From NCBI GenBank assembly GCA_963729045.1, contig CAVSMN010000008.1, positions 1 through 64,000 of the forward strand: DNA of 64,000 nt, written 5' to 3'. Origin of the DNA: an uncultured Nitrososphaeraceae archaeon (GTDB lineage Archaea > Thermoproteota > Nitrososphaeria > Nitrososphaerales > Nitrososphaeraceae). A program made the position numbers and the translations under genes. Below, one piece after another: positions 362 through 63,514 of the stretch. Under the pieces are notes generated by a model. That model was given only the letters and a program-made list of their open reading frames with translations. It searched no databases and was not told where the DNA came from. Position 1 is the first letter of the stretch, and each line of letters opens with the position of its first letter.

Positions 362-1530
362 ATGAATAAGAAGGTTGATGACGATTTGGTAAATAAAAAT
401 AGTATAACAACAGGTGAAAATAATATATATCTTTCACCAAATGTAGGTGGTCTACAGGATAATCAAATAACCTTTGTTAATTTTTCCAATAATTATTGTA
501 TATGCATGATTGATATAATTGATTCTACAAATAATACATATGATATATTAGAATCTAAAAAGATTAAGCAATACTACTCTGTATTTCTCAATACCATGAC
601 CTCAATAATAAGCCGTCATGGGGGTAAAGTAATTAAAAATGCTGGCGATAACTTGTTGTATTATTTTCCAAGTACAATGAATGAGAGTAATTATTTAGAT
701 TTTCAAGATGTAATTGAATGTGGATTATCGATGATTGATGCAAAGGAACAGTTGGATCTGTTGTTGAATTTAAATGGTTTGCCTCCTATTAATTATAGGA
801 TTAGTGCAAGTTATGGAAAAGTAGAACTAGCAATTGTAGCAAATTCTAGTAGCGGCGATATTTTTGGAACACCTGTAAATATATGTTCTAAAATAAATCA
901 TTTAGCTTCATCAAATCAAATGATAATTCATAGAGATCTTTATCAAATTATGAAAGAAATGCCGTATTTCGATGACTATGTATTTGAGGAATTAGATCGT
1001 AAAAAAAGTGTTAACGACTATTCAGAAAATAATAGAAATGTATATACAACTTATTCTGTTCGTCGATTTGAAGATATTAATAAACAAAAAGAAATAGAAA
1101 GCAAAATATCAGAATTGCATGCCGAACGTAAGCGTATTAATCAAAATAAAAATAACTCGTCTTTTAACATTTTGTTGATAGATGATGACAAAGACATTCT
1201 TTTTACATATACATCTATAATTAAAAGCCAAGGCTTTACAATAACCTCTTTTTCAAATCCATACAAAGCCCTTAATGACTTTTCCACAACGAATCCATAT
1301 TTATACGATTTAGTCATAATGGATATACGGATGCCGGGAATAAATGGTATTAAATTGTACTTAAATTTAAAATTATGAACCCCAATGTAAAGATACTTTT
1401 TGTGTCAGCCTTAGATGCTGTTGGTGAATTGTTAAGCTTATTTCCTGAAATTAGTGATTCAGATATCTTGAGAAAACCTGTAGAATCCCAACAATTATTA
1501 GACAAAATAAATACAGCAATAAGACAATAA
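362..1530 (+). CDS. Class III adenylate/guanylate cyclase domain fused to C-terminal receiver (REC) domain; frameshift near 1360
   Basis: Cyclase motifs CMIDIIDST, KVIKNAGD, DIFGTPVNICSKI; REC motifs ILLIDDD and DLVIMDIRMPG. The REC C-terminus (MNPNVKILFVSALD...RKPV) continues in another frame from 1375 to TAA at 1528-1530. Confidence 0.85.
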
Positions 1531-3163: not shown

Positions 3164-3839
3164 CTTATTCACTATTTAAATTTATATGCATATATTTGGA
3201 ATTCTTCTTAAAAATCTACAACTCTAACATGAATTAACAAGATATACAAAAGTAATAGATCATTTATGATACTGTATTACTGTAAGGATGTTAGGTAAAA
3301 AAAATACAAGTAGATAACAATTGTAATGAAATCACAATTACAATTTGATTTACGCATACATTTAATAGAATAGAAAAAAATTGTTCTCGATTTCTAAATC
3401 ATAAGTTTATTAAATCAGAATTTTAAGAGTAGATCATATTATTTTGTTATTGCTCGATCTATAATATTATTTTTTTGTTATAAACCACCTTCAGGTTTTC
3501 TAGAAGCGTAATTAAGACTATATTGATTATTGGTGTGAAGACGTTTAGAATATCCAGTTAAACCAAAGATCTAGATGCAAATTATTAAATCGAAAATTAT
3601 GACGTTGTAATTCACTATAATAACATGGCAAATAATTTAAGATTAAAAGACTATCAATAGTGAATGATGTTCACTCTTACTGCTAGCTCAAGGTGAGATT
3701 AGGTTTTATAAGAAATTGAGAGATTCATAAGGCTATACCTGTTAAGCCAATGCTGATACCGAGAATACGACCTATAAAGTTATTATTCTATATTGTAAAT
3801 CATAGTTTTCAATAAATAAAATTTGATCTTTGATATGGT

Positions 3840-5557
3840 TCAGGCTCGATTTATTCCTGCGTTTGGTTCGGGTTCGGATTCTGGCATAGATCTTAATTCA
3901 ACAGGAATACTAAAGCTAAAAGTACTGCCAATTCCGTTCTGGTTGTTTGATGCCCAGATCTTACCTCTATGTGCTTCTATTATGTTTTTTGAAATGTATA
4001 GTCCTAAACCAGTTCCACTATCTGACCTTGAAATAAACTTTTCAAATAGATGATTCATTACTTCAGAATTAATTCCTTTACCCTTGTCACAGATACTTAC
4101 AATTACTTCTTTCCTGTCCTTTTTCATCAATACTGTTACAGTTATTTTTCCTTCTTCAGTAAACTTTCTTGCATTATTTAATAAATTTAATAACACCTGT
4201 GATATTCTAGCCTTATCTCCTTCTACCAAGATTGATTGATCAAGAACTTCTTTTGATTTAGTTTCATCGATGGAAATTACAATCAATGGATACATTTTCT
4301 TCTTTTTTTTCTGAATTTGTGGTAAAATCCTGGATGGTATTTTTAACAAGTTCCACAAAATCAAACCGCGAGGTATTCAGATTTAATATATGACTATCTA
4401 TTCTGGAGACGTCCAAAATATCGTTGGTTAGCTTTTGCAATTTCTTTGCGTTTCTATATATCACTTTAATGTCATTTTTCAATTCGGACTTATCGATCTC
4501 GCTAGTGTTATTCTGAAGGCTACGATTAATCAGATCAGAAAGTCCCAGAATGGGTTGAATTGGTGTACGTAGTTCATGGGCAGCTATATTAATAAAATCA
4601 TCCTTGAGTTTTTCGTTTTCCTGTAATTTTTTAAGATTTTCTTTGATTAATGAATTGGCCTTTTTTAGATTACATACTGTATTGCATGCTTGACATAATA
4701 AGTGCAATAATATTTACAAAATATCCTACGTCTTTAAGAACATGTGCCATATTGTGGGCAGTATCAAAAGACATAGCAGAAAAGGCCATGACGACCTGCG
4801 TAAATATATCAATTACAAGATACAAGGCAAGTCCTTTATACACAACATCTTTTTTTTGATAGAGTTTTTTCTTGTAAAAAAAGAACAATACCAAACAGAA
4901 TAGTATTAGAGGAGGAATCTCGTACGGCCTATGCACTGAATAATCATCTAAAACAGATGAGGGATAAACCAAAAAAAGTGAGCTTACAGCCGTTACTATT
5001 GCGATAATCCCCAAAATGGATATATAAAAAATTATACCATCTTTTTTTTCAGTAATGGCCTTTTTTTTCATTTCTTCTTGTGTATATGATGGTGATCTGA
5101 TATCAGACACTTGTTCTATTTCTTCTCTTTGAGATAGCGACGAATATTTTAAAATAGCAATTAGGAGCATCGCACCAAGGAAGAAACGTCCAGCAAACCA
5201 AGTTTGAGGAATAAAATACTTTATGAATAATATATTCTCTATTAAAGCAAAAGATACTATAACATGGAACAAATCAATTGAAACACTAATGAAAAATCCT
5301 ATACCAACAAAAAGACTAAATCGATCTCGTAGAACCCTATAGCGCAAAATGTAATAAAAGGATAGAGCCGAGCCTAGTATTACTGCAATCAATTCGATGT
5401 AAAAATGATGTATCTCTGAAGAAACCCATAAAGTAGGATCTAATGAGATAGCTAAGAACAGAGACAGCAGTAGAGATGGCAAAACTACTAGTTTAATTAG
5501 ACTTGATAAAATTGAATCCTGGGAGAAAATATGATTGAGATTTTTCAAAAACATCAT
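3840..5557 (-). CDS. Membrane sensor histidine kinase (MASE3-like TM sensor, HisKA, HATPase), two frameshifts
   Basis: Multi-TM N-terminus (HFYIELIAV...DLFHV...QTWFAGRF); H-box AAHELRTPIQP; N-box QVLLNLLNNARKF; G-boxes DKGKGI and GTGLGL, spread over three ORF pieces. Confidence 0.85.
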
Positions 5558-5694
5558 CTTTAAACAATAATCATAAAAAAATTGAAAATATTTGACAGGT
5601 TAGGAAAGTCTACTGGTCTATTTGTTATGAATTCAAGTCCTAATTTATTTTCAATACCAAAGACAGTAAAAATTAACGAATCCAATACTGTCAA

Positions 5695-6898
5695 TTACCA
5701 ACGATTGGCTTTGGATAACTTCTTTTTTATGATCGAGATAAACTGTTCACCGCTTAAAGGTTTTCTCACAATTTCAGTCATTTTTATTTCAGGCAATGCT
5801 TCCACGAACTCGCCAACCAGATCCAGAGCAGTTACAAAAAGAATATTCAAATATGGATCTATCGCTTTGAACCTGTAGAATAGCTTTATTCCGCTCACCT
5901 CAGGCATTCTTATATCCATAACCACCAAGTCATAATTATGTGAATTTTTTTTTGCCAAGTTTTCTAGAGCCTCAATAGGATTTGAATAAGAATGTACTTG
6001 ATATCCTTCCTTTTTTAACAGTGAATGATATGTGTATAGAATATCCTCGTCATCATCTATTAATAAGATATTGTACTGTTTGTTTTCTATTTGACTCAGG
6101 TCGCTTGATTTCATTTGAAGGGGCTTGATGCTTGAGTGTTTCACCTCGTTTGTTTGCGATTAATATTTTTCTATTGTCCATTATTGTGTAATAGGAAGTA
6201 ATATTTTTGCTACTCCCATCCAATGATAGTTTAATCTCAGATATTTCAAATTCTTTACTAAAAGTCGAATTGATTAATAAAGTATACAAGTTCTTTCCTA
6301 TTACTAATCCATTTGATTTAGACAAGCTGTTTATTTTGGCACATTCATTTACTACCGAGCCAAATAAGTCTACTTCCTTGTTATTAGACCCCAAGGCAAC
6401 TTCTACTAACCCATAATTCATACTAATTCTATAATTGATTGGAGGCAAGTCTTCTTCTGCCAGTTCTTGATTCAAAGGTTTGTTTGATTTAATCATTGAA
6501 GTGCTGCAATCAAAAACGTTTTGCAATGCCTGTTGATCATCAAGATTTGATGTTTTTGGAAAGTAAAAAAACAAATTATCTCCGCTATTTTTAATAATTT
6601 TTCCATGGTATTGAGTAAGTATGGTACTCATGGAATTCAAAAAAAGTGAATAATATTTTCTTAACTTTTTAGGGTCTTTTATTTTTGCAGTTTCTTGAGT
6701 GGAATTAATTATATCGATAAATCCTATACAATATTGTTGTGTGAAATTAATAAAATTTATTTGTTCTTGATTACTTTCTTTAGTCAAACTATTCGAATCT
6801 GAATTTGATCTTGGAATACCACCACTGGAACTATTGAAAGTATTTTCAGAGTTATCATACTTATTGTAATTAGATAGATTGTTTAGGTTATCTATCAT
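5695..6898 (-). CDS. Class III cyclase-REC fusion, frameshift near 6120-6150
   Basis: CIGFIDIINST, KIIKNSGD, DLFGSVVNECAKI in 6053-6898; REC (ILLIDDD, DIRMP, RKP) in 5695-6144; colinear with the intact paralog at 62336-63514. Confidence 0.85.
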
Positions 6899-7221
6899 GT
6901 TTATATGGATGATATGGATCAGGTACTATTTATGGTTGTTGTTTAATATTGCAAATATATACCAATATCATTCTATAAGGTTCGTTTTAGTGAAATACTT
7001 GAAATTTTGGTCACTGTGGTTCAATAGACTAATAACTATAGCTTATTAAAACAAGGTTTAAAAATATTGCTATTGTAAAACTATAATGCTAATGCTATTA
7101 GCTATTAGAAGTTAGATCGCAAAAATGAAGACAATGACATTATATCTTAAGGATTTGTGGATGTTGTGAGATTATGAAGACGTACCCTTTGGGTTGATGA
7201 TACACAATCCTGTCACCATAA

Positions 7222-7605
7222 TTATTTCATCATATCTGCAATTCTTTTTAATAATTCTTCGAGTTCAATCGGTTTTTGGATAAATAAATCTCTACTTAAT
7301 TCATGATAGTCTTTTTCTCGAAATTGTTGATAATATGCCTCGCTAGCAGTCAAAAAACACACTCTAATGTTATTGTCCATTTCCTTTATTTTCTTGTACA
7401 AATCAAAACCATCTATATATGGCATCTTAATATCAAGAAGTGCAATATCGTAGTAGTTTACCTTGAAATTTGACAAAGCTAACATAGAATCATTAAACGC
7501 ATCCACTTCAAATCCATGAATTTCTAGGATACGTTTAAAAGATAAGGTAATGTCATCCTCGTCATCTACTATAAGAATTTTTATTTTATTTTTTTTGATT
7601 TTCAT
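7222..7605 (-). CDS. Stand-alone response regulator receiver
   Basis: ILIVDDE, LLDIKMP, FLTA, QKP motifs. Confidence 0.9.
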   Translation of the reverse strand: MKIKKNKIKILIVDDEDDITLSFKRILEIHGFEVDAFNDSMLALSNFKVNYYDIALLDIKMPYIDGFDLYKKIKEMDNNIRVCFLTASEAYYQQFREKDYHELSRDLFIQKPIELEELLKRIADMMK

Positions 7606-7606
7606 C

Positions 7607-9340
7607 TCATATACTCACTCCAGAACTATTTTGAATCAGGTCGGTTTTAATTAATGGGATTCTAAAAGAGAAAGTTGCACCTTTCCCATCTTTATTATTT
7701 TCAGCCCACATACTTCCACCATGAGACTCAATAATATTCTTTGAAATGTACAACCCCAATCCAGTACCTTGAAACGATCTAGTGGAAAATTTACTAAAAA
7801 GATGAGGAAAGATTTCTTCCGAGATCCCACTTCCAGTGTCTTTAATGATTATTTCTGTGTATCCATACGCATGTGGACCATCTCCTTTTGATATCTTAAG
7901 AGTTATCCTGATCAATCCATCTTTTTCAATGAATTTTATAGCGTTATCGAGCAAATTTGAAATAACCTGAATAATTCTCTCCTTATCAGCATGAATAAGA
8001 GCATCGGGCCCTAAGATTTCATTCTGTAGAGTATAATGCAATTTTATATGCCTTTTAAAAGTAGGTTTTTTTAACTGTCTTGTGTAATCCTTTATGATGG
8101 TAGTTAATAAATCGTTTAAGATAAAATTCTCTTGATGTAATACAAGTTTGTTGCTTTCGATTTTAGTAACATCTAAGATATTTTTTATCAGAACGTTGAG
8201 TCTTTTAGCGTTCCTATAAATCGCTTCTATGGATTCATTTTTATTAACATCATATTTTAATAAATTTGCAAAAGTCAAAATGCTTTGTGTTGGAGTTCTT
8301 AGCTCATGAGCAGCTATATTAACAAACTCGTCTTTTGCTTTGTCAGCCAGTCGCAGTTTTTTTATGTATTCCTCTTTAAGATTATCTGCGTCTTTTAGTT
8401 TTTCATATAGCTCGGTTTGTTTCCACAATGTATCAAAAATGGTAACAAATGATATAACATTTGGTTGACTTGTAGAATATATTGCCGAGCCAACTGCGTC
8501 GGTAAATTTCTGCTTTGTGTCATTCTTTAATTCCACTATCAGCGAGTACTTTCCATCTACGACCAGTATATTTATCGGCGCATCAAAAGGCGATTCGATA
8601 CGTCTAACTTCAATTTTGTCCGTTTGACTTAGATTATCAATCTCATTTTCTGCATTACTAAATGATGGAGTAATTATTCTTATTTTTACATTTCTATTTG
8701 AAGCGTCTATCAAAGATTGCATTAATCCATCATTTTCCTCTCTCAGAAAAACAGTGGAAGTTGTAAGAATAAGCATTATTTCAGTAACACTGGATTTTAA
8801 AATATCAAAATAGATGCTCTTTATTTCGAATGGATTTTTAATGACATCTACAATTTCGGGAACGATGCCCTTCTCAATTTCGTCAATTTTCTCTATTGCA
8901 GAAATAGATTTATCCCATAGGTTCTCAAAAAAGAAATTATGTTGTTCTACCACTGCCGTTGAATTACTGTATACCACTTGAGACAATAATTGTAAATTTT
9001 TCATTGTCGCTGATGCGATATACTCATTTTCATTTACCGCAAAATTTCCTTTTAATCCAGGTAAATGATGTACTGCAGCTATCTTCAATAATTCTTTACA
9101 AAAAGCAATATTTTCTTTAGTTACCTCGGTAATAAACCTGCATTTTACATTTCTTTTCTTCAAGTCAAACATCCCTTTATTAAATACTTCTATGCCAATC
9201 GCGACGGAAGGCCAGTACTGGTCTGCACAAATTAACAGATTGTTTGTAGAATTATTTAAGACATTGAGGATTGTTTTGGTGGACTCTTCTAATCCTTCTG
9301 CAGTACCTATTCCCTCCATCTTATCTAAAAAGTTATGCAT
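7607..9340 (-). CDS. Soluble sensor histidine kinase
   Basis: AAHELRTP, QVISNLLDNAIKF, DTGSGI, GTGLGL; probable start at ATG 9340 or 9319 rather than the ORF-track start at 9640. Confidence 0.85.
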   Translation of the reverse strand: MHNFLDKMEGIGTAEGLEESTKTILNVLNNSTNNLLICADQYWPSVAIGIEVFNKGMFDLKKRNVKCRFITEVTKENIAFCKELLKIAAVHHLPGLKGNFAVNENEYIASATMKNLQLLSQVVYSNSTAVVEQHNFFFENLWDKSISAIEKIDEIEKGIVPEIVDVIKNPFEIKSIYFDILKSSVTEIMLILTTSTVFLREENDGLMQSLIDASNRNVKIRIITPSFSNAENEIDNLSQTDKIEVRRIESPFDAPINILVVDGKYSLIVELKNDTKQKFTDAVGSAIYSTSQPNVISFVTIFDTLWKQTELYEKLKDADNLKEEYIKKLRLADKAKDEFVNIAAHELRTPTQSILTFANLLKYDVNKNESIEAIYRNAKRLNVLIKNILDVTKIESNKLVLHQENFILNDLLTTIIKDYTRQLKKPTFKRHIKLHYTLQNEILGPDALIHADKERIIQVISNLLDNAIKFIEKDGLIRITLKISKGDGPHAYGYTEIIIKDTGSGISEEIFPHLFSKFSTRSFQGTGLGLYISKNIIESHGGSMWAENNKDGKGATFSFRIPLIKTDLIQNSSGVSI

Positions 9341-9891
9341 ACATATTAATTTTTTATATAAAATGGTATTAAATGGTTTAGATTGTTTTATATTGACAAC
9401 AATATAAAATGAAGATACCAAAGTAGATAAGGAAATATATACGAAAATTGTAACCCATCCTACCGCTACAATAATACATTTTGCACTTTGACCAATATCA
9501 TAATTATTTTCCTTCTTTAATTTAATTGCATTTGCGTTCCATGTATTTACATGCATTGTAATCATTAATAGATATGCGATTGCTGCTACAGTTAAAACCA
9601 TCTTATCCTTTATAGTATTCATTTTGGATTGACTGTTCAATATCTATCAATAACAAATATCAATTATCAAATAAAAGTGATACTACTAATGCTACACTGA
9701 TTTTATTAGGTTAACAAAACCAAAAAAGACACAAAACATAAAATGACAATACTTTTTGTTATATCTAAGTTAATCTAAACTTGGTTTTTAGATAGAGAAA
9801 AATTTGAAGTAATTTAGTTTGAAATTAATCGTAGTGATTTTCTTATATTAATGATGTTGCTTTAAGGGCTACAGGTAATTGAAAAAGAATA

Positions 9892-12681: not shown

Positions 12682-14815
12682 TTATTTTTTTAATCCAATC
12701 CTCACATCCACTACCCGTGAACCACGTCCTTCTTCTAGGACCAGTAACGGATTAATATCAAATTCTTCGATTTCTGGAAAATCTATGATTAGCTGAGATA
12801 ATCTTAGCAAGCAATCAACTACGGATGGAATATCTGATGATTTTTCACCTCTAACACCTTTCAATAAAGAAATTGTTTTGATTGAATCCACCATTTCCCT
12901 GGCTTCTGATTCAGAAATAGGAGCCAGTCTGAAATTTACATCCTTCAAAATCTCAACGTAGATTCCCCCTAATCCAAACATCAACAGTGGCCCAAATAAT
13001 TTGTCTTGTTTTGCACCAAGGATTAATTCTTTGGAATTGGTCACCATTTCCTGAATCAACACGCCTTCAATTCTTGCGTTTGGATTATAATTTTTTACAC
13101 TAGACATGATAGAATTATACGCATTTCGAACATCATCGGTATTTTTTAAACCAACTTTTACACCACCCGATTCTGATTTGTGAATAATGTCTTTTGAAGA
13201 TATTTTCATGACAACAGGATAACCAATTTCTATTGCAGATTTAACAGCATCATCTTCATTATTTACTAGCATACTTTTTGGAACTGGAAATCCATATGCT
13301 TGAAGTACAGCATAGCCCTCATCTTCCAAAAGATTTGTTCTGCCCTGTTCGTAAACGTTAGATATAACATCCTTAACCTTCTCCTTATTAACTGAGAAAG
13401 ATGGTATAGATTCTTTTTTGCTGTTTAACCAATTACTAAACCTATACATCGAATCTAATGTTCTAATGGCAGGTTCTGAATACATAAAATGAGGTACTCC
13501 TCCTTCTGACAATATAGATTTGTTTTCAACACCCTCAGCCAAACCCATTAATGCAGCTAGCATTGTCTTTCCACTATTCTTTGATGTTCGAATTATTGTT
13601 TTGGCTAATTCATTATAATCTAAAGTCGCAGATGGGGTACACATTGTTACTACAGACCCAACATTAGAATTAGACAATACTTCAATCAATACTTTTTCAA
13701 ACCTATTGAAATCCGCATCGCCTACTATATCAACAGGATTTCGTGAGGATCCATGCGGCGGGATAACTTTAGATATACTTTCCCTCGAATTAGAAATATC
13801 TGCCATTTGTATGTTATATTTGGAACAAGAATCGGTGGAAATGATTGCAGGTCCACCCGCATTAGAAACAATTACTACCCCCATATTATTCATTGGTAAA
13901 GGTTGTTTTGAAAAAGCAGTCGCTAATTCAAATAATTCCTGCATTGTATCTACCCGAATCACACCAGCTTGCTTAAATACAGCATCGTATACTTCGTCTG
14001 AACCCATCAATGCACCTGTATGAGACATTGCGGCTCTGGCGCCTTCCGGAGTCCTACCAGCTTTTAAAACAATAATTGGTTTTCTTTTTTCCAAAGTAAT
14101 TCTTTTAGAAGTATTCATGAACCGTACGGCCATCATGAATATCCTCTAAATACATCACAATTACTTTGGTATAAGGATCATCTTCTAATAATTCAAGTAT
14201 ATCAGTTTCATTCATATCCACCTTGTTTCCCATGCTAATTACTTTGGAAAATCCTATTCCCTGAGCTATTGCATCCTCTACCGTAGCTGCGCAAATAGCT
14301 CCACTTTGAGAAACAAGAGCTATTTCACCATGTTTAGGAGTAATTTTCAAAAATGTTAAGTTCATAAGATTTTGATCGGTAAGACTCATTATTCCAAGAC
14401 AATTGGGCCCTATTATTCTAATTCCATATTTTTTACCAATATCTTGTACTTGTTGTTCCAATTTTGCACCAGTTTCATCAACTTCTTTAAAGCCTGCAGA
14501 AACAATTATGCAAGATTTTATATTTTTTTTTCCTATTTCTTCCATAACTGCAGGAACGATTCTATTTGGGGTGGCGACTACCGCAAGGTCAATGTTGTCA
14601 TCTACATCAAGTACGCTTTTGTAGGCTTTTATGCCAGATACCGATGAACTAGTTGGGGTAATCGGATATATTTTTCCCCTATAGCCGCTCAATATATTGG
14701 AAAAAATAGCTTTACCTACTCCAGGTTTTTCTGATGCTCCTATTACAGCAATAGAAGATGGTGAAAGGAAAATGTTCTTTAAATTTTCATTACTCAATAA
14801 AAAAAAGTATATCAT
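12682..14815 (-). CDS. ADP-forming acetate/acyl-CoA ligase (alpha-beta fusion), frameshift near 14127
   Basis: CoA-binding IAVIGAS, IIGPNCLG, SQSGA; phospho-His SHTGALMG; ATP-grasp GYPVVMKISS..HKSESGGV, DINPL. In Thaumarchaeota this family includes the 3HP/4HB-CoA synthetases. Confidence 0.9.
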
Positions 14816-23086: not shown

Positions 23087-24082
23087 ATGGGTCTTATTAA
23101 ATTCGTGGTGCCCAAAGGCAGTATAGAAGAGGCTACTTTTAAAATGATAGAACAGGCATGGCAATGCAGTGTTAGCGGAAGGGGTAGAATATACAGGGTA
23201 AAGATTGCAGACCCAGACATAGAGGTCAAAATTCTAAGACCTCAGGAAATTCCTACGTACGTACAAGAGGGATTTCATGATGTTGGAATAACAGGCAAAG
23301 ACTGGATAAGGGAAACTAATGCTGATGTCAAAGTATTGTTAGATTTAGAATATGGCAAAGTTAAGCAGGTAATAGCTATTCCAGAATTTTTTGAGTTCAA
23401 CAATCTTGATGAGTTGATAGATAATTTTGCTCAGAACAAAAAGACTTTGAGATTTTCAACGGAATATCTAAAATCAGCATCCTCATACATAAAATCAAAG
23501 GAGAGTTATAAGAAACACTTTGGAGATCTGGAACCCACAATAGTAACTCCTTGGTCTAGGACAGGTAATAATAAAATGGTGGAAATTTTTCTATCATTTG
23601 GAGCAACAGAGGCAAAACCTCCAGAAGATGTCGATGCAGTTTTTGACATTACAGAAACAGGAACCACCCTTATTCAAAATAATTTAAAAATCATAGATCA
23701 AGTAATGGAATCTACAGCAGTACTCATAGCAAATAAAGATGCGCTAAAGGATCCTATAAAAAAGGAAAAAATAATAGACATGATTGTCTTATTGAGAGGA
23801 GTAGTAGAAGCAAGAAAAAAATTACATATTTTCGTTAATGTAGAAAAAGACAATCTTGAAGAATTATTACGTATTCTCCCATCATTGAAAGGTCCAACTA
23901 TTAGTAATTTAAGTAAAGAGGGATGGTATGGAGTAAATACCATAATAGACAAGAACGAGTTTATTAGACTTATACCAACTATCAGAAAAGTTGCTCAGGG
24001 GTTGGTAATTTTAGAACCAAGTCAAATATTATCAATGGATAAGATCATTCTAGATGATAAAGATGAAATAAAATTTGATTAA
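23087..24082 (+). CDS. hisG: ATP phosphoribosyltransferase
   Basis: PKGS, RPQEIP, DVGITGKD, GATE, DITETGTTL. Confidence 0.92.
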   Translation: MGLIKFVVPKGSIEEATFKMIEQAWQCSVSGRGRIYRVKIADPDIEVKILRPQEIPTYVQEGFHDVGITGKDWIRETNADVKVLLDLEYGKVKQVIAIPEFFEFNNLDELIDNFAQNKKTLRFSTEYLKSASSYIKSKESYKKHFGDLEPTIVTPWSRTGNNKMVEIFLSFGATEAKPPEDVDAVFDITETGTTLIQNNLKIIDQVMESTAVLIANKDALKDPIKKEKIIDMIVLLRGVVEARKKLHIFVNVEKDNLEELLRILPSLKGPTISNLSKEGWYGVNTIIDKNEFIRLIPTIRKVAQGLVILEPSQILSMDKIILDDKDEIKFD

Positions 24083-25368
24083 GATTATAAGAATTAAAGA
24101 ACCACGAGAACAAGCTAATGAATTAAGAGAAAGATCTTGGAATAAGGATCTTTCAATTCCAACAAAGAATGTTCTAAAAATCATCGATGACATACAAAGA
24201 AACGGAGATGAAGGATTGTTAAAATGTATTGAGAAATACGAAAACGTTAAGATTGATTCATTTGTTGTTAGTAAGTCTGAAATTAAAGAAGCCTATGAAA
24301 ACGTCTCAGCCAAGCAAATAAGAATAATAAAATACATGAAATCCAAGTTGGAGAAAAGTGAAAAAGCTGTAATCGATAATCTCAAGAATATTAAAATTGA
24401 TTCGGATGGAATCAAGATAAACAAAACAATAATGCCTATTTTCAGAGTAGGATGTTATATCCCAGGCGGGAAAGCTAGATATCCAAGTACCGATAGTAAT
24501 GTGTGCCATACCAGCAAAAGTTGCAGGGGTAAAACAAATCGTGGCTATTACACCACCCATGAAAAATGGAAAAGTGGACCCTTTGACTCTTGTTGCAGGG
24601 GACATCTGTGGTGTAGATGAGTTTTATAAGGTAGGTGGCGCGTACGGAATAGCAGCACTGGCTTATGGTACAAAGACTATAAAAAGAGTGGATAAAATAG
24701 TTGGACCAGGTGGTGTATATGCGTCTGTTGCAAAGTCAGTGGTATCAAAAGATGTATCAATAGACATGATAGCCGGTCCGACCGAATTACTAGTGTATGC
24801 TGACGAAAAGTCAAATCCACGGTATATTGCATTGGACTTGATCTCTCAGGCAGAACACAGCGAAGATACATTATGCGGGGTAGTAACGAAATCAAAAATG
24901 TTAGCCACAAAGATTTCTGAAGAATTAAGTAGAATAATTAAAGAAGATGAAATACCTAGAAGAGAATTTGTTGAAAAAAGTATAAATGATAATGGATTCA
25001 TAGCATTATGCGATAATAATGAAGAAATAACAGAATTCATTAATGAATTTGCACCTGAACACCTTGAAATATTTGCAATTAATGATAAAAAAATATTGAA
25101 GGAGATTTATAATGCAGGATTGATATTAATTGGCGAATACACTCCATCATCTGTAAGCGATTATTGTCTTGGCTCTAATCATGTACTTCCAACTTATAGA
25201 TTTGCAAAATCGAGGTCAGCACTATCTGTTTTAGATTTTATTAAACTAGTAAATGTGATAGAAATGAATAGGGATGCTTTAAAGAAAATCTCTCCAATCA
25301 TAAAAGAAATAACATCAACAGAAGGATTATTTAATCACTATGAAGCGGTAAATGGAAGGATAAAATAA
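24075..25368 (+). CDS. hisD: Histidinol dehydrogenase, frameshift near 24492
   Basis: VGCYIPGGKARYPST joins VMCAIPA after one extra base; GPG, DMIAGPTE, SQAEH, APEHL, GSNHVLPT. Confidence 0.92.
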
Positions 25369-35020: not shown

Positions 35021-35452
35021 TTAATTTTTCATACCACAGATTTCGAAACTAAAAGCAATATACCCGATTATGGAGCTATCCTTTCGAATCGGGAAAAAAT
35101 TATCAGTATATTTAGGCATTAATTCTTGTTTTAAAGATAATGCATCTTCTTTTGATATATCCAATCTTAACATATCTTTACCAAAGAGTAAATCCCATAA
35201 ATCAATATCAAGAACTTCTTTTAATGCAATGAAAGAAATAATCCTGTTAGTATTTGCTTTGTCTACAACTATGAAATAGTTAAATTCATTCTCTTCAGAA
35301 AATGGATCAGGGGCGGTAAAACAATCTATATTGAAGTTACTAGTCAATCTTTTTCTCAATATGTGTGCAGAATAAGACATGATTGCTAGATCAGTAAGAG
35401 ACAACGCTTTTACAGTAGCTAGAGTAGGCCCTTGGATATTTAATGAAAGCAT
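35021..35452 (-). CDS. Hypothetical protein
   Basis: 143-aa ORF, no recognised motif. Confidence 0.6.
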   Translation of the reverse strand: MLSLNIQGPTLATVKALSLTDLAIMSYSAHILRKRLTSNFNIDCFTAPDPFSEENEFNYFIVVDKANTNRIISFIALKEVLDIDLWDLLFGKDMLRLDISKEDALSLKQELMPKYTDNFFPIRKDSSIIGYIAFSFEICGMKN

Positions 35453-35553
35453 ATCTTAGGTAATAATGTAGGGTATTAATTATTTATGGAGAAATAAAAA
35501 TTATTAACATAAGTTTAAAAATATAACACTTGCAAAGTGATGTAAGGTAAAAA

Positions 35554-36330: not shown

Positions 36331-36365
36331 TATTGATCATGGATGAGATAATATGCTACCAACTT

Positions 36366-41796: not shown

Positions 41797-43613
41797 ATGA
41801 GTAGAAAAAATATACTTGTTCTTGGAATAAATGATGGACATGACGCTGGAGATGCTTTGGTTTAAAACGGGCAGGTAATAATTGCTGTCCATGAAGAGCA
41901 GATAAACAATGATAAAGGTTTCAGAGGAATACATGAAAAGGCTATTCCAAAGGTTTTTGACATTTCTCATACAAATCCATCAGATTTAAATTTGATTGCC
42001 TTGGCTAGTTACTATCCACCAGGAGGAGAAAATCTAAAAGCATTATCGACCAAGTCATTGATACGACTCAGCCCATTACTCCATTCGGATTCTTTTATCA
42101 AATTTTACTTAAGGTATATCAAAAACAAAAGGAACTTTGAAAAGTTTGAAAAAATTTTTAAAAGTTTAGGAATAAATCCTAACCAGATTGAAACAACAAT
42201 AATTGAACATCAACTTGCTCATGCTTCTGCTGCATATAGAAGTTCTCCATTTGGATATAGCAAAGAAGATATACTAATTGTCACTGCTGATGGTTCAGGC
42301 GACGGATTATCTTCATCTGTAAACATAGGTATTACGAATAAAACGGACAGCAGCGTGGTCCTACAAAAGGAAACTATAGGAGATATAAAAAGAATTGCTT
42401 CTTCATCCTATTACGATTCGATAGGCAATGCATTTTATACAGAAATAACAAAATATTTGGGACTAAAACCATGGGAACATGAAAGTAAGGTGATGGGTCT
42501 AGCACCATACGATAAACCAGAATACTGTATAGACAAAAAGAGGAAAATGATAAAAATAAATGCATCTCATAATCTAAGAATTAAAAACACCATAGGTCCC
42601 TTTGGATAGGAGGGTCTGCGATACAATGTAGATTAAGTAAATTATTGCAGAATCAAAGATTTGATAATGTTGTTGCTGCTGCACAACAACATCTCGAAGA
42701 GTTGATGAAAAAATGGGTTAGTAATGCTGTTAAAAAAACAGGTATCAGGAAAATTGTTTGTGCAGGTGGAATTTTTTTGAATGTAAAAATGAATATGATT
42801 CTAAGAAAGTTTTTGCAAAGTTTTTCCTCTAGCAATGATGAAAATGGAATGATTTTTGTATATCCTGCTCCTGACGATAGCGGGCTTCCAGTCAGATGTG
42901 ATATGGAAGGGTATTATCAGTATTGTAAAAGAGACGGAAAGGAACCATTAAGTGTTAAGGTTGAACATACCTACTATAGACATTCCAATAGCAACGATGA
43001 GATTAAAGACATAATAAAAAAATGCAATGAAAAAAGTAATAACTTTAATTCTAATGGTATCAATGGTAAGTTCAATTACGATTACTATGATGACATTGAT
43101 GGTATGGCGGGTGAACTTCTTTCAAAGGGTAAAGTTCTTGCTAGGTGTACAAGTGGTGGTGAATGGGGTCTCTGAGCTCTTGGAAATAGGTCTATTATTG
43201 CAGATCCTCAAGATAGTAATACGATACACAAAATTAACTTTGCTATCAAACAGAGGGATTTTTGGATGTCTTTTGCTCAGTCTATGCTGTATGAAAGAAG
43301 CTAGTATTAGATTGTTGATCTCTAATATGCACCATACATGATAATGGCATTTGATTTGACAGAAAAGGGACAGATACTCTTACCAGCTGCGATACCTCCA
43401 TATGATAAGACTTGTCGATCTCATAATATCAAAAAGCAATGCCATAGAGGCTATTACAAAATCATTAAAACATTAGAAAAAATAACAGGGATTGCATCTG
43501 TCTTAAATATTTCATTTAATCTACATGTATATCCTATTTTGGATTCCCCTGATGTAAAACTTTGGACTTTGGAGAACTCAAGGTTAGACGGACTTTTTTT
43601 GGATACTATTTAG
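41797..43613 (+). pseudogene. Decayed NodU/CmcH-family carbamoyltransferase
   Basis: LGINDGHDAG..LV*, EHQLAHASAAY, DGSGD, ESKVMGLAPY, AGGIFLNVKMN, EWGL*ALGNRSIIADP, LNISFNLH. Confidence 0.85.
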
Positions 43614-46266: not shown

Positions 46267-46641
46267 ATGTCTTCTTCTGCTCGTTCCATCATCGTAATTG
46301 ATGACGAGATAGAACTTGCATCTCTTTTTAAGACATTTTTAGAAAATGAGGGGTATGATGTTGTTTCTTTCACCGATCCTACATTGGCTCTAGAATATTT
46401 CAAGGAAACTTCTGATAAACATTCTTTGATAATAACTGACTTAAGAATGCCAGGTTTATGTGGAATCGATCTTGCAAAAAATATACGGAAAAGTAATAAT
46501 AATATCAAAATATTCCTGATGACCGCTTTTGAAACACACAGTTTACAAGATGATGAGGACTTTAAAACCGCAAGAATTGATAGACTAATTCAAAAACCCG
46601 TTCGTTTTTCTGATCTAAGGGAATGGATAAAAAATGCTTAA
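46267..46641 (+). CDS. Stand-alone response regulator receiver
   Basis: IVIDDE, IITDLRMPG, LMTAF, QKP. Confidence 0.9.
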   Translation: MSSSARSIIVIDDEIELASLFKTFLENEGYDVVSFTDPTLALEYFKETSDKHSLIITDLRMPGLCGIDLAKNIRKSNNNIKIFLMTAFETHSLQDDEDFKTARIDRLIQKPVRFSDLREWIKNA

Positions 46642-59788: not shown

Positions 59789-59874
59789 TTGATCTTCATT
59801 AATGTGAACGTTATAGACGTCTATTAATTTTTTATATGGAGATTCTGCCTCGGTTACATAACTAAACCTTACAA

Positions 59875-60067
59875 AAGATCTATAGTTGATTCATGATTTA
59901 GATAGGTATTGTTTTTTTGCACAGGATTATAATCAACCTTGAACCGTATCCCCACGGGCCCGGACCTTGAAAGATCTATAGTTAATTCATGATTTAGATA
60001 GACATTGTTTTTTTGCACAGGATTATATTCAACCTTGAACCGTATCCCCACAGGGCCCGGACCTTGA
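59875..60067 (+). repeat. Two tandem ~96-bp units containing the family B core
   Basis: AAGATCTATAGTT...GCACAGGATTATA(A/T)TCAACCTTGAACCGTATCCCCAC(A)GGGCCCGGACCTTGA at 59875-59970 and 59971-60067. Confidence 0.92.
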
Positions 60068-60133
60068 TTAGTCAACCAGTTGAAAGAGTAGGAGGCTTTT
60101 TTTGTTGGAACCCACGTCAGAAAGACGTAGATC

Positions 60134-60637: not shown

Positions 60638-62319
60638 TTATTTTTTTAAAGGTAAACTAAAACTAAATGTAGCACCATTACCGTCCCTATTGTTTTCAGC
60701 CCAAATCTTTCCGCCATGAGCTTCTATTATGCTTTTTGATATATACAAACCCAAACCAGTTCCAATAAATGAATTTGAAACAAATTTTTTAAATAAATAT
60801 GGCATTATTTCCAGATCAATTCCTAATCCTGTATCTATTACGGCAATTACGACTTCGCTATTATTTTTTTTCTCCATTGTTACAGCTATCGATCCTTTTG
60901 TTGTAAACTTTATTGCATTATTTACAAGATTTGACAATACTTGAGTTATTCTATTTTTGTCTCCTTTTACAACTACGTGACCCTTTGGTGACATCTTTAA
61001 TTTACCATCGTCATTTTCTTTATTGTTAAAGTCATTTTTACATACAAATAATACATTTTCTTTCTTTTTTTCCATATCTATTGTACAATCATTTATTGTA
61101 TTTGATATGACGTCAAGAAGATCAAATTCTCCTATGTCAAGCTTCAATTCATTACTTTCAATTTTAGTTACATCTAGAATATCGTCGGTCAGTTTTTGTA
61201 ACCTTCTTGCATTTCTATATATGATTGACACACCACGTTCTATTTCTTTCATATCAACATGTTTTTTATTTTGAAAATCTCCATTAAGCATTCCTGAAAG
61301 CCCGATAATTGGTTGAATCGGTGTTCTCAATTCGTGAGCAGAAATGTTTAAGAATTGATCTTTCATCTTTTCTGCTTCTTTGACTTTTATATATTGATTT
61401 CGTATAAGAGCATTGCTTTTTTTTAAATTCTTGGTATAGTGTATACTAGATAAAGCAAGTGCTATGATGTTGACAAAATATCCCGCATCTTTAATCACAT
61501 GAGCTAGGTTATGCGCAGTATCAAAAGAAACGGCAGAAAAAGACATTATGATTTGAGCGAATATGTCAATTATGAGATAAATAAGAATACCTTTATAAAG
61601 AACGTCTTTTTTTAGGTAAAGTCGTTTTTTATAGAAAAAGAACAAAGCAAGGACAAACAATATCAGAGGTGGAATCTCATAGGGCCTATGAACGGAGTAA
61701 TCATCTAAAACAGAGGCAGGAAAGACCAAAAATAGTGAGCTCAAAGCAATACTAGATGCCAATACACCTAAAATTATTATATATAGAATGGAGTTGTCTA
61801 TTATATTTTTTTTAGATTTTTAGAGGGGTTGATCTTTTGATCAGTATCATACTGTTTATCAAGATTGACAAGGTCTTCTTCTTCTTCTTTAGATGTGTAT
61901 GAATATTTCACTACTGCAATTAAGAGCATAGCGCTGAGAAAAAATCTTCCTGCAAACCATGTTTGAGGAATGAAATACTTCAAGAAATCAATATTTTCAA
62001 TTAGTGTTATTGATACTATTACGTGTAACATATCAATTAATCCGCTAATTAGAAATCCGATACCAACAAAAAGGCTAAAATTGTCCTTTAAAACTCTTGC
62101 ACGCAGAATATAATAGAAAGCTAATGCTGAAACTAAAATAACTGCAAATAATTCAATATAAAAATGATGGATTTCTGATGCCACCCACAAAAAAGGATCA
62201 AAAGATATGATAGTTAGTATTATGAGAGGTATCATAGGTAAGAGCGTAAATTTGACTAATACTCTAAAGAATACTGAATTATTGTTATGGAATAAACTTT
62301 TATGAATCGTTATAAACAG
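60638..62319 (-). CDS. MASE3-like membrane histidine kinase, frameshift near 61800
   Basis: Paralog of 3840-5557; SAHELRTPIQP, QVLSNLVNNAIKF, DTGLGI, GTGLGL; start uncertain (frame open to ~62320, first ATG at 62235). Confidence 0.85.
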
Positions 62320-62335: not shown

Positions 62336-63514
62336 TCAATCATTTATTATTGATTTTATTTTTAATATGAAATCTTCTGGTTCTATGGGCTTTCTAATGA
62401 TCTCTTTCATGTTTATTCCAGGAACCGACTCTATTAATTCGTGTACAACATCCAGTGCTGATATCAATAAAATTTTCGCATAGGGATTTATTGCTCTTAG
62501 TTTATGATAAAGCTGAATACCATTTATTCCAGGCATTCGAATGTCCATCAGAATCAAATTATAAAAGTAAGGGCTTTTCTCTGTAAAATGTGTAAAAGCT
62601 TCAATTGAATTTGAAAAAGCCTTGACTTTATAACCTTGTCTATTTAAAAGGGTAGTAAAGGTGTAAAGAATATCTTCTTCATCGTCTATTATTAGAATAT
62701 TGATAATGGTGTTAGCAATAGGTTTTGATAAATTATTTTTCTTTAGTGTATTTTGTATTTCTCTGTAGTCAAGTATAGTTTTATTCCTTTGAATTTCATC
62801 TAGTATACTTACAGAATACAAACAATCAAAATTTTTAACGGATTTGATGTTATTAAAGCCATTATTTTGTAGATTTACCTTATGTATAGCATAGTTGTTA
62901 ATGAATTGAGATTTACTAACTCTATAATATAGTTTTTCCCCAATCCACAATTCTTTTGAAGACACAAAATTATTCATTTTTGAACATTCATTAATAACTG
63001 ATCCAAACAAGTCAACTTCATTAGAATTATCAGACATTGCTATTTCCACCTCTCCATAATCCATACAGATTCTATAATTGATAGGCTGCAATTCATTCTC
63101 GCATAACTGACTATCTAGTATACTACTGGATGAAAGCATTCTCATTCCACATTCAAATACTTCATGAAAGGCCGGCTCGTTGGTTTCGTCACAAGTTTTG
63201 GGAAAATAGAAAAACAGACTATCCCCAATATTTTTAATAACCTTTCCATTGCAATTATTGATTACAGATGACATTGTATTAAGAAATAACGAATAATATT
63301 TTCTCAATTTAGGTGGACTAGATATTTTTGAGGTTTCATTAGTTGAATTAACAATATCAATAATGCCTATACAATATTGCTGAGTATAGTTAATGAATTT
63401 TATTTGATCATTATCATCTGTAAGATTAGCATTTGTAAGATTATCAGGTCTTGATCTAACATAATTATAGGCATCTTTATCATAATCTATACGATTAGAA
63501 CTTAATACTTCCAA
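62336..63514 (-). CDS. Class III cyclase-REC fusion (intact, 392 aa)
   Basis: CIGIIDIVNST, KVIKNIGD, DLFGSVINECSKM, then ILIIDDE, LMDIRMPG, ISAL, RKP. Confidence 0.9.
   Translation of the reverse strand: MEVLSSNRIDYDKDAYNYVRSRPDNLTNANLTDDNDQIKFINYTQQYCIGIIDIVNSTNETSKISSPPKLRKYYSLFLNTMSSVINNCNGKVIKNIGDSLFFYFPKTCDETNEPAFHEVFECGMRMLSSSSILDSQLCENELQPINYRICMDYGEVEIAMSDNSNEVDLFGSVINECSKMNNFVSSKELWIGEKLYYRVSKSQFINNYAIHKVNLQNNGFNNIKSVKNFDCLYSVSILDEIQRNKTILDYREIQNTLKKNNLSKPIANTIINILIIDDEEDILYTFTTLLNRQGYKVKAFSNSIEAFTHFTEKSPYFYNLILMDIRMPGINGIQLYHKLRAINPYAKILLISALDVVHELIESVPGINMKEIIRKPIEPEDFILKIKSIIND

What the first reader, a model, noticed from the sequence alone, without database searches (positions are those of the whole stretch)
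3840..6898. Cyclase-REC fusion encoded with a MASE3 membrane kinase: candidate phosphorelay-controlled cAMP system
Seen: an N-terminal class III cyclase with C-terminal receiver lies directly upstream of a multi-TM histidine kinase. The same pair recurs at 60638-63514, and a third cyclase-REC is at 362-1530. All three cyclases keep both metal-binding Asp (xDIxxST, GD), the Lys (IKNxGD) and Asp (DxFG) that specify ATP in class III adenylate cyclases, and the catalytic Asn, but have Lys where Arg is usual (NxCxK). The REC phospho-Asp (MDIRMP) is intact. Known: class III cyclases are uncommon in archaea, and bacterial REC-cyclases usually have REC first. Inference: the kinase senses a membrane signal and switches cNMP synthesis. 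I cannot check whether domain surveys have already listed this architecture.
Basis: partly seen in the sequence, partly recalled or inferred. Interest (0 to 1): 0.75.

Follow-up and report, generated by a model that had tools for sequence, protein, structure and literature searches.

The report
Archaeal cyclase-receiver gene beside membrane kinase
A soil ammonia-oxidising archaeon carries three copies of a gene that fuses a probable cAMP-making enzyme to a phosphorylation-controlled switch, two of them next to a membrane sensor kinase, which makes them untested candidates for how such archaea make cAMP.

Summary
The domains are real. Three paralogous genes (362-1530 +, 5695-6898 -, 62336-63514 -) encode an N-terminal class III cyclase domain and a C-terminal receiver (REC). 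Two are followed, 100-137 nt downstream on the same strand, by a MASE3-HisKA-HATPase_c kinase.

Copy A has one 1-nt frame break, kinase A two, kinase B one and copy C one. hisD, a CoA ligase and a carbamoyltransferase are split too, and orthologues elsewhere are intact, so sequence error is likelier than decay.

The window is about 94% identical to a Candidatus Nitrosocosmicus MAG. The cyclase belongs to a divergent clade with an almost invariant D-K-D-D-N-C-K signature. Metal, ATP-specifying and Asn residues are kept, and Lys replaces the usual Arg.

The kinase pairing holds in 3 of 13 related loci, all Nitrosocosmicus.

Best reading: an ordinary two-component system with a cAMP-synthesis output, not a multi-step phosphorelay. 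It is a new variant of a known kind and biochemically untested.

The parts
62336..63514 (-). Cyclase-REC copy B, 392 aa, the only intact copy. The model shows a disordered N-terminus (1-37), a class III cyclase domain (about 40-237), a linker helix (240-262) and REC (272-391).
   Evidence: Single ORF. Pfam PF00211 34.9 bits and PF00072 71.9 bits. AlphaFold2 model pLDDT 80.9, pTM 0.78. Foldseek top hits are all class III cyclases, with target-normalised TM about 0.8.
60638..62235 (-). MASE3 histidine kinase B, in two frames: 61801..62235 (N half of MASE3) and 60638..61762 (rest of the membrane part, HisKA, HATPase_c). The frame changes near the A8 run at about 61805-61812. It starts 100 nt downstream of copy B.
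   Evidence: The second frame continues the kinase-A-like sequence.
5695..6898 (-). Cyclase-REC copy A, about 400 aa if read through. Cyclase ORF 6053..6898 and REC ORF 5695..6144 lie in different frames. The window has one extra base near 6098 relative to L001.
   Evidence: The L001 orthologue (L001:2992-4194) is one 400-aa ORF.
3840..5557 (-). MASE3 histidine kinase A, about 571 aa if read through, in three frames: 4670..5557 (MASE3), 4264..4707 (HisKA with H-box HELRTP) and 3840..4364 (HATPase_c). The window has extra bases near 4673 and 4271 relative to L001. It starts 137 nt downstream of copy A.
   Evidence: Intact 562-564-aa orthologues at L005:7378-9066 and L003:1869-3563 carry MASE3+HisKA+HATPase_c.
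362..1530 (+). Cyclase-REC copy C, about 389 aa if read through. ORF 362..1378 ends inside REC; the rest of REC runs in another frame to the stop at about 1530. One base is missing near 1361 relative to L001. No kinase is directly adjacent.
   Evidence: The L001 orthologue (L001:7451-8617, minus strand) is one 388-aa ORF with both domains.
7222..9640 (-). Neighbouring second two-component pair on the same strand: kinase 7607..9640 (677 aa, PLD-like sensor part, HisKA, HATPase_c) and stand-alone REC 7222..7605. It lies 323 nt upstream of copy A. Any link to the cyclase system is uncertain.
   Evidence: Pfam. Same arrangement in L001. The sister kinase L006:3649-5793, with its own REC, lies divergently beside another cyclase-REC.

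Best explanation
The locus belongs to a Nitrosocosmicus-like ammonia-oxidising archaeon. It encodes two-component systems whose response regulator carries an enzymatic output, a class III nucleotidyl cyclase domain placed N-terminal to the receiver.

Shown: the domain identities, the class III fold, and family-wide conservation of both metal-binding Asp, the Lys/Asp pair that marks ATP-specific class III cyclases, the catalytic Asn, and the REC acidic pocket, phospho-Asp and Lys. Also shown: a membrane-embedded MASE3 kinase with an intact H-box lies immediately downstream in one Nitrosocosmicus subclade. By hydropathy it has about 7-8 hydrophobic segments and no large extracellular domain.

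Inferred mechanism: the MASE3 kinase senses a membrane-associated cue, autophosphorylates on the HELRTP histidine and passes the phosphoryl group to Asp324 of the cyclase-REC protein. REC phosphorylation then changes how two cyclase domains pair, acting through the 240-262 helix and/or REC dimerisation. Class III cyclases form their active sites across a dimer interface, so this would change cAMP synthesis from ATP.

The family-wide Lys in place of the transition-state Arg keeps the positive charge and is taken as compatible with catalysis.

The frame breaks in four of the five genes are most likely sequence or assembly errors rather than gene decay.
For: Domains and fold:
- Pfam matches are above cut-off.
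- The AlphaFold2 model has pLDDT 80.9 and pTM 0.78.
- The Foldseek rows displayed among the top 50 ranks are all class III cyclases (Cya2, CyaB, CyaC, Rv1625c, Rv1900c, mammalian AC and sGC), with target-normalised TM 0.7-0.8 for single-domain targets.

Catalytic residues:
- They are invariant in 93 family members and in 20.
- The alignment to Cya2 and its engineered cyclase places K94 at the specificity position and K179 at the Arg position.
- D-K-D-D-N-C-K is complete in 104 of 150 aligned stretches from the 149 best 50%-identity cluster representatives. Lys sits at the Arg position in 136, Arg in 3, another residue in 3, and 8 are gapped.
- All three window copies and 12 of 14 locus copies show the full signature. 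Four locus rows lack only the first Asp because my ORF call starts too late. L006 has Glu at the last position.

Pairing:
- Both MASE3 kinases in the window lie directly downstream of a cyclase-REC.
- The same order and strand, with 135-201 nt gaps, is found in L001, L003 and L005.
- The four paired cyclase-RECs sit on one side of the family tree, together with L001_C; support for that branch is 92/85.
- The adjacent kinases form one clade, 100/99.
- Five further cyclase-REC and MASE3-kinase hit pairs share source and contig length on contigs of 5-7 kb. This is suggestive only.

Frame breaks as errors:
- hisD, an ADP-forming CoA ligase and a carbamoyltransferase are also split in mid-domain.
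- The L001 orthologues of copies A and C are intact.
- L001 has its own frame breaks at other places, and its record title states coverage of about 5.
Against: - No activity has been measured for any member. The transition-state Arg is replaced by Lys throughout the clade, and I know of no kinetic data for that change (recall).
- Pfam scores for the cyclase domain are modest (34-44 bits). The best PDB sequence match is only E = 2e-4.
- 9 of 13 related loci have no MASE3 kinase in the held flanks. In L012 the nearby MASE3 kinase is on the other strand and has its own stand-alone REC.
- The MASE3 kinase family is several times larger than the cyclase-REC family, so most of these kinases serve other regulators.
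- Gaps of 100-200 nt leave co-transcription open.
- A second kinase type (7607..9640) also recurs beside cyclase-REC genes, so the true donor is not settled.
- The frame-breaking indels against L001 are not in homopolymer runs, so real mutations cannot be excluded without reads.
- No cNMP-binding protein or recognised phosphodiesterase was found among the 67 window ORFs scanned.
Confidence: 0.6

Rival explanations
1. The cyclase-like domain is not an adenylate cyclase. With Lys for Arg and an invariant Cys two residues earlier, it may make a different product (cGMP, a cyclic pyrimidine or another nucleotide derivative). Alternatively it may only bind nucleotide and serve as a dimerising or regulatory module of a response regulator.
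For: The Arg-to-Lys change and the invariant Cys177 define the whole clade. Similarity to characterised cyclases is weak: 13-18% identity in structural alignments and E = 2e-4 by sequence. Review PMC10249747 (passages) notes that pyrimidine cyclases closely resemble adenylate cyclases, and that archaeal proteins annotated as adenylate cyclases have proved to be something else (CYTH).
Against: Both metal-binding Asp, the Lys/Asp specificity pair and the Asn are under strong conservation across 93 members and across the 50%-identity cluster representatives. That is not expected of a non-catalytic domain. The Lys/Asp pair is the ATP signature; Lys at that position is what the engineered Cya2-derived adenylate cyclase 6fht carries. 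REC fusion and a kinase neighbour do not fit a phage-defence cyclase.
Confidence: 0.2
2. The neighbouring MASE3 kinase is not the cognate donor. The cyclase-REC proteins are phosphorylated by other kinases, for example the PLD-like-sensor kinase at 7607..9640 or unlinked ones. On this view the adjacency in Nitrosocosmicus is a lineage-specific accident of duplication.
For: 9 of 13 related loci lack a MASE3 kinase nearby, and four of them share a kinase-free housekeeping synteny. In L006 the neighbour is a different kinase, sister to the window's 7607..9640. MASE3 kinases are very numerous. The internal branching of the kinase clade is unresolved, so co-duplication with the cyclase-REC genes is not shown.
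Against: Response regulator followed by kinase on one strand is the usual layout of cognate pairs (established knowledge of two-component operons). The layout has been kept in two paralogous pairs only about 45% (regulator) and 57% (kinase) identical, and in three other genomes. Both MASE3 kinases in the window sit at exactly this position.
Confidence: 0.25
3. In this particular genome the system is decaying. The five frame breaks are real mutations, and copies A and C and both kinases are pseudogenes, leaving one orphan cyclase-REC.
For: Five 1-nt frame breaks fall in about 7 kb of these genes. Those that can be compared with L001 are not in homopolymer runs. The 2.4 kb of the adjacent kinase-REC pair 7222..9640 has none.
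Against: Unrelated housekeeping genes in the same window are broken in mid-domain: hisD, a CoA ligase and a carbamoyltransferase. An autotroph could hardly lose them. The closely related L001 has intact orthologues of A and C, and different breaks of its own. All catalytic residues are intact in the broken copies.
Confidence: 0.15

Closest known systems
Bacterial and eukaryotic class III adenylate cyclases regulated by receiver domains (cyanobacterial CyaC, Dictyostelium ACR)
   Same: A class III cyclase homology domain and a REC domain share one polypeptide, with phosphorylation presumed to control cAMP output. ACR is described with kinase and receiver domains plus a cyclase domain in PMC3009899 (abstract in the listing). 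The CyaC catalytic domain is among the structural matches (1wc1).
   Different: In those proteins the receiver(s) lie N-terminal to the cyclase (for CyaC this is recalled, not tested here). Here REC is C-terminal, joined by one helix, and nothing ordered precedes the cyclase. In all 7 REC-bearing proteins among 25 clade representatives sampled, the order is also cyclase then REC. The host is an archaeon, and the catalytic Arg is Lys.
Synechocystis Cya2 (PDB 2w01) and its engineered adenylate cyclase derivative (6fht)
   Same: Closest solved relative by sequence (E = 2e-4) and by fold (E = 1e-12, target-normalised TM 0.79-0.80). It is a homodimeric, single-domain, bacterial-type class III cyclase.
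   Different: About 17% identity. Cya2 is a guanylyl cyclase with Glu/Gly at the specificity positions where this family has Lys/Asp. Cya2 keeps the Arg that is Lys here.
MASE3-domain sensor histidine kinases (Pfam PF17159; NCBIfam NF047874 MASE3_PAS_HK)
   Same: The same membrane-embedded MASE3 module, followed by HisKA and HATPase_c. NF047874 is the best NCBIfam match of the intact orthologue (150 bits).
   Different: The score is far below that family's cut-off of 560, and there is no PAS domain. The family is archaeal and hugely expanded in Nitrososphaeraceae. My search for 'MASE3' together with 'archaea' found 0 papers.
Archaeal two-component systems as catalogued in the 2018 census (PMC5847659)
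   Same: Thaumarchaeal kinases and response regulators, mostly stand-alone REC. The neighbours 7222..7605 and 46267..46641 are of that kind.
   Different: The census main text contains no occurrence of 'cyclase' or 'MASE3'. The supplementary files that could be searched contain no Guanylate_cyc, CYCc, MASE3 or Nitrosocosmicus; file 4 could not be searched. This output type is therefore not listed there as far as I could see.

Membership tests
Class III nucleotidyl cyclase (cyclase homology domain, PF00211) | Sequence match to the family profile above its curated cut-off | tested here: met
   34.9, 44.2 and 34.1 bits for copies B, A and C against a cut-off of 21.9.
Class III nucleotidyl cyclase (cyclase homology domain, PF00211) | Class III catalytic fold | tested here: met
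   In the model, pLDDT is mostly 85-95 per 10-residue block over about 41-210, lower at 161-170 and beyond 210. The displayed PDB matches are all class III cyclases, with target-normalised TM about 0.7-0.82 for single-domain targets.
Class III nucleotidyl cyclase (cyclase homology domain, PF00211) | Two metal-binding Asp | tested here: met
   D53 is at least 90% conserved and D98 invariant in 93 sequences. Both are present in all three window copies. Their assignment as metal ligands rests on motif position (recalled), not on a ligand-bound model.
Class III nucleotidyl cyclase (cyclase homology domain, PF00211) | Substrate-specifying pair (Lys/Asp for ATP) | tested here: met
   K94 aligns with the Glu of Cya2 and the Lys of the engineered cyclase 6fht. 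D168 aligns with the second specificity position. Both are invariant.
Class III nucleotidyl cyclase (cyclase homology domain, PF00211) | Transition-state Asn and Arg | tested here: not met
   Asn175 is present and invariant. The Arg position is Lys179 in all 93 family members, and in 136 of the 142 non-gapped stretches from cluster representatives. It aligns to the Arg of Cya2.
Class III nucleotidyl cyclase (cyclase homology domain, PF00211) | Dimerisation to form the active site, and cyclic nucleotide synthesis | not testable with these tools
There is no biochemical assay.
Two-component response regulator (REC, PF00072) | Profile match and the acidic pocket, phospho-acceptor Asp, Ser/Thr and Lys | tested here: met
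   72-76 bits. D277, D324 (in MDIRMP) and K375 are invariant and D278 at least 90% conserved. Ser or Thr precedes the conserved A353 in the alignment blocks.
Two-component response regulator (REC, PF00072) | Phosphotransfer from a cognate histidine kinase | not testable with these tools
   Only gene adjacency is available: 2 pairs in the window and 3 of 13 loci.
MASE3 sensor histidine kinase | MASE3 + HisKA + HATPase_c with an H-box histidine | tested here: met
   HELRTP is seen in the translations. The intact orthologues show 6 distinct hydropathy peaks, plus 1-2 further hydrophobic segments judged by eye.
MASE3 sensor histidine kinase | Uninterrupted reading frame in this window | tested here: not met
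   Kinase A is in three frames and kinase B in two. This is probably sequence error.
Multi-step phosphorelay (His-Asp-His-Asp) | A hybrid kinase and/or an HPt protein | tested here: not met
   There is no HPt family and no REC fused to either MASE3 kinase among the 67 window ORFs scanned. ORFs shorter than 90 aa and frame-broken genes could hide one.

The most novel reading that the evidence does not exclude
The D-K-D-D-N-C-K clade of class III cyclases is widespread in Nitrososphaeraceae. It occurs as stand-alone, REC-fused, sensor-fused and giant proteins. The boldest reading not excluded is that this clade is the missing cAMP synthase of ammonia-oxidising archaea, and that it is switched by a receiver attached to the C-terminal side of the catalytic domain. 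That regulatory geometry differs from the N-terminal helical transducers of studied class III cyclases. The invariant Cys-x-Lys that replaces the canonical Arg would add a clade-specific catalytic or redox feature.
Probability: 0.35. Interest if true: 0.7.

Novelty: new variant of a known kind. Interest (0 to 1): 0.5.

Why it matters
A 2023 review (PMC10249747, passages read) states that cAMP is present in archaea, but that no archaeal protein that makes, degrades or binds it has been characterised. It also says the archaeal 'class IV cyclases' are not cyclases. The 2005 signalling census (PMC1183210, passages) found no class 3 cyclases in archaeal genomes apart from one uncultivated 'crenarchaeote' fragment.

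This family therefore gives a concrete, clonable candidate for archaeal cAMP synthesis, with a built-in handle (the REC Asp) for testing regulation. It occurs in soil ammonia oxidisers that matter for nitrification. It also offers a natural test of whether Lys can replace the transition-state Arg in class III cyclases.

Against that, the domain fusion itself is an expected type of response-regulator output, and the genes are already annotated as such in databases.

Tried and rejected
- Homopolymer slippage as the cause of the frame breaks. The breaks first seemed to sit at A-runs. The alignment with L001 puts the comparable indels at non-homopolymer sites, so I dropped that claim. Only kinase B's break lies at an A8 run, and it has no close reference.
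- An alternative genetic code or programmed frameshifting. Rejected, because most window genes read normally under table 11 and orthologues are single ORFs.
- tRNA and Rfam scans of the window found nothing.
- Alignment of the five regulator-kinase intergenic regions showed no shared motif beyond the close pair window A and L001. Operon status stays open. The promoter/terminator scan was not run because it models bacterial sigma-70 sites.
- NCBIfam has no specific family for the fusion; all matches are generic REC hits far below cut-off.
- The genome-contig scan was diluted by a generic REC pattern.
The organisms behind the dCache-HAMP, MEDS and giant forms therefore stay unknown.
- The 2004 FEBS Letters survey of class III cyclases in bacteria and archaebacteria is not held.
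Full report
**What is in the sequence**

Pfam assigns them as follows:
- 6053..6898: Guanylate_cyc, 44.2 bits against a cut-off of 21.9.
- 5695..6144: Response_reg, 75.9 bits.
- 4670..5557: MASE3, 39.7 bits against a cut-off of 31.
- 4264..4707: HisKA.
- 3840..4364: HATPase_c.

The second pair is 62336..63514 and the kinase below it. 62336..63514 is one 392-aa ORF carrying Guanylate_cyc at residues 45-204 and Response_reg at 273-386. The kinase is in two frames, 61801..62235 (first half of MASE3) and 60638..61762 (HisKA and HATPase_c).

The third cyclase-REC is 362..1378 on the plus strand. It stops after 64 of 111 REC profile positions, and the rest of REC continues in another frame to about 1530. 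So only one of the five genes is intact as given.

**Are the frame breaks real?**

Locus L001 comes from a Candidatus Nitrosocosmicus MAG. It is 94.1% identical to window 3798-9412 and 89.6% identical to 136-1549, in the same gene order. Against it the window has:
- single extra bases near 6098, 4673 and 4271;
- one missing base near 1361.

Each of these sits where the frame changes, and none is in a homopolymer run. L001 in turn has its own frame-breaking single-base differences at its positions 1830 and 4997. Its record title gives a coverage of about 5.

The L001 orthologues of copies A and C are single ORFs of 400 and 388 aa. L003 and L005 have single-ORF kinases of 564 and 562 aa.

Elsewhere in the window, three unrelated genes are also cut in mid-domain:
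- histidinol dehydrogenase: profile positions 12-124 in 24075..24620 and 127-410 in 24499..25368;
- an ADP-forming CoA ligase: the Succ_CoA_lig domain is cut at 70-72 of 138, between 14105..14815 and 12682..14136;
- a carbamoyltransferase: 41992..42609 and 42645..43175.

Frame breaks are thus window-wide. I read them as sequence or assembly errors. Without reads, real mutations cannot be ruled out.

**Organism and family**

The window carries archaeal housekeeping genes: exosome subunits, prefoldin, SBDS, RNA polymerase subunit D, and ribosomal proteins L18e, L13 and S9. GC content is about 0.31.

The intact protein has 427 relatives at E <= 0.001.
- Of the 120 listed, 114 carry both PF00211 and PF00072.
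- The names given are 'response regulator' or 'CheY-like chemotaxis protein / class 3 adenylate cyclase'.
- The sources are Thermoproteota, Nitrosopumilus sp. MAGs, and Ca. Nitrosocosmicus (arcticus, sp. T).
- Two MAGs are labelled as bacteria.

In the species-level genome collection, only 13 of the 78 loci returned cover the cyclase part, and all 13 are Nitrososphaerales or Thermoproteota.

**The cyclase domain**

The AlphaFold2 model (93-sequence alignment, pLDDT 80.9, pTM 0.78) shows four parts:
- a disordered N-terminus, residues 1-37;
- a compact domain, 40-237;
- one long helix, 240-262;
- a REC fold, 272-391.

The displayed Foldseek matches in the PDB are all class III cyclases: Cya2, CyaB, CyaC, Rv1625c, Rv1900c, rhodopsin-guanylyl cyclases, and mammalian AC and sGC. 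Target-normalised TM is about 0.7-0.82 for single-domain targets, and identity is 13-18%.

By sequence the best solved relative is Cya2 (2w01) at E = 2e-4. In that alignment:
- K94 lies at the position that is Glu in the guanylyl cyclase Cya2 and Lys in its engineered adenylate cyclase 6fht;
- N175 aligns with the Asn;
- K179 aligns with the Arg of the V-N-x-x-x-R motif.

In the 93-sequence alignment K94, D98, D168, N175, C177 and K179 are invariant, and D53 is at least 90% conserved.

A search of 1.84 billion cluster representatives with the cyclase part alone found 661 clusters at E <= 0.001, 351 at 1e-10 and 81 at 1e-30. Among 150 aligned stretches from the best 149 representatives:
- the full D-K-D-D-N-C-K signature is present in 104;
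- the last position is Lys in 136, Arg in 3, another residue in 3 and gapped in 8.

This is therefore a distinct, conserved clade in which Lys replaces the canonical Arg. It is not a decayed domain.

I sampled 25 representatives for architecture.
- 7 have cyclase followed by REC, one of them inside a 1746-aa protein.
- None has REC first.
- Others are stand-alone domains, dCache-HAMP or HAMP fusions (3), a MEDS fusion (1), or proteins of 1072-1584 aa with no other Pfam domain.

**The receiver and the kinase**

REC keeps D277, D324 (in MDIRMP) and K375 invariant, and D278 at 90% or more.

The kinases carry the HELRTP H-box and the usual ATP-lid motifs, seen in the translations. The intact orthologues show 6 distinct hydropathy peaks, and by eye 1-2 further hydrophobic segments, split by a hydrophilic loop of about 50 residues. 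There is no large extra-membrane domain.

The MASE3 part alone finds at least 1879 relatives. The named ones among the 120 listed are Nitrosocosmicus, Nitrososphaeraceae or Thermoproteota, with one MAG labelled bacterial, and a few are hybrid with REC. No paper in the library combines 'MASE3' and 'archaea'.

**Is the pairing conserved?**

In the window, both MASE3 kinases start 100 and 137 nt downstream of a cyclase-REC, on the same strand.

The 13 full-length loci divide as follows:
- L001, L003 and L005, all Nitrosocosmicus, have the same layout with gaps of 135-201 nt.
- L012 has a MASE3 kinase with its own REC, 2.6 kb upstream on the other strand.
- L006 has a different kinase plus REC placed divergently upstream, and a calcineurin-like phosphoesterase downstream.
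- L008, L009, L010 and L013 share a kinase-free neighbourhood. A Csl4-like exosome protein and an MptE-like protein are in all four, prephenate dehydratase in L010 and L013, and GMP synthase in L009 and L013.
- L002, L004, L007 and L011 show nothing related.

In the family tree the four paired proteins, together with the unpaired L001_C, form one side of a branch with 92/85 support. The adjacent kinases form a clade (100/99), but its inner branching is unresolved, so co-duplication is neither shown nor contradicted.

Five further cyclase-REC and MASE3-kinase hit pairs share source label and contig length on 5-7 kb contigs. This hints at more pairs, but I did not fetch those contigs.

The pairing is therefore real and recurrent within one Nitrosocosmicus subclade. 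It is not a property of the whole family.

**Mechanism**

The most likely reading is a plain two-component system. The MASE3 kinase senses something in or at the membrane and phosphorylates Asp324. The phosphorylated REC, through the linker helix or REC dimerisation, alters the pairing of two cyclase domains and hence cAMP synthesis from ATP. Only the parts list and the residue conservation are shown; every functional step is inferred.

No HPt domain or hybrid kinase was seen among the 67 window ORFs scanned, so 'phosphorelay' in the strict sense is unsupported. Those ORFs also include no cNMP-binding protein or known phosphodiesterase. The window is only 64 kb and partly frame-broken, so that says little.

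**Comparison with what is known**

- REC-regulated class III cyclases exist in bacteria and Dictyostelium (ACR: abstract in the listing). In the ones I recall, the receiver precedes the cyclase.
- The 2005 census (PMC1183210, passages) reported that archaeal genomes lack class 3 cyclases, apart from one full-size domain on a fragment of an uncultivated 'crenarchaeote'.
- The 2018 archaeal two-component census (PMC5847659) does not mention cyclase or MASE3 in its text, nor in the supplementary files that could be searched; file 4 could not be.
- Two comparative-genomics papers note class III cyclases (COG2114) in Thaumarchaeota, and 'extra copies' in Nitrosocosmicus together with kinases and regulators, without analysing them (PMC9289680 and PMC13577086, passages).
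- The 2023 review PMC10249747 says no archaeal cAMP-making, cAMP-degrading or cAMP-binding protein has been characterised.

My searches for a description of this fusion or pairing found none. Subscription journals and bioRxiv supplements were not searchable.

**Verdict**

It is a new variant of a known kind: a response regulator with a class III cyclase output, here archaeal, with reversed domain order and a Lys-for-Arg clade. Interest is moderate, because it gives a direct experimental handle on archaeal cAMP synthesis.

Noticed in passing
window 7222-9640 (-); L006:3240-5793: A second two-component pair lies directly upstream of cyclase-REC A: a kinase with a PLD-like sensor part plus a stand-alone REC. 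Its sister kinase, with its own REC, lies divergently beside another cyclase-REC in L006 (tree support 99/97). A second kinase type therefore recurs next to these genes.
   Followed up: partly
L006:7676-8599: A calcineurin-like metallophosphoesterase (Metallophos) lies directly downstream of the cyclase-REC. Some cyclic-nucleotide phosphodiesterases belong to this superfamily (recalled). It was seen in one locus only.
   Followed up: no
L008, L009, L010, L013 (cyclase-REC at about 5858-6898, 623-1666, 5938-7149, 6055-7095): A subgroup of cyclase-REC genes sits in a conserved kinase-free housekeeping neighbourhood. A Csl4-like ECR1_N protein and an MptE-like protein are in all four loci, prephenate dehydratase in L010 and L013, and GMP synthase in L009 and L013. 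This suggests an older, 'orphan' core copy.
   Followed up: partly
proteins P0165, P0169, P0188, P0191, P0194, P0202, P0205, P0216, P0223: The same cyclase clade forms the C-terminus of proteins of 1072-1746 aa. The five that were Pfam-scanned (P0165, P0188, P0202, P0216, P0223) show no other Pfam domain, except REC in P0188.
   Followed up: partly
window 24075-25368 (+), 12682-14815 (-), 41992-43341 (+): Histidinol dehydrogenase, an ADP-forming CoA ligase and a carbamoyltransferase are each split between frames in mid-domain. This points to window-wide single-base errors.
   Followed up: partly
window about 35450-42000: This stretch has few ORFs of 100 aa or more. GC falls to 0.27 and GC skew rises to 0.25 at 40-42 kb. 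It may be non-coding or heavily frame-broken.
   Followed up: no
window 59874-60067 and 29994-30173: There are two tandem repeats: 96 bp x 2.0 (94% matches), inside a small ORF 59869..60075 with a duplicated peptide, and 54 bp x 3.5 (92% matches), made of GTGGTT-like units.
   Followed up: no
window 46267-46641 (+): A further stand-alone receiver gene (124 aa) with no kinase beside it among the ORFs scanned.
   Followed up: no
hit tables: Five cyclase-REC hits and five MASE3-kinase hits share source label and contig length: 7129, 5917, 5002, 6258 and 5325 bp. This suggests further adjacent pairs on short metagenomic contigs.
   Followed up: no
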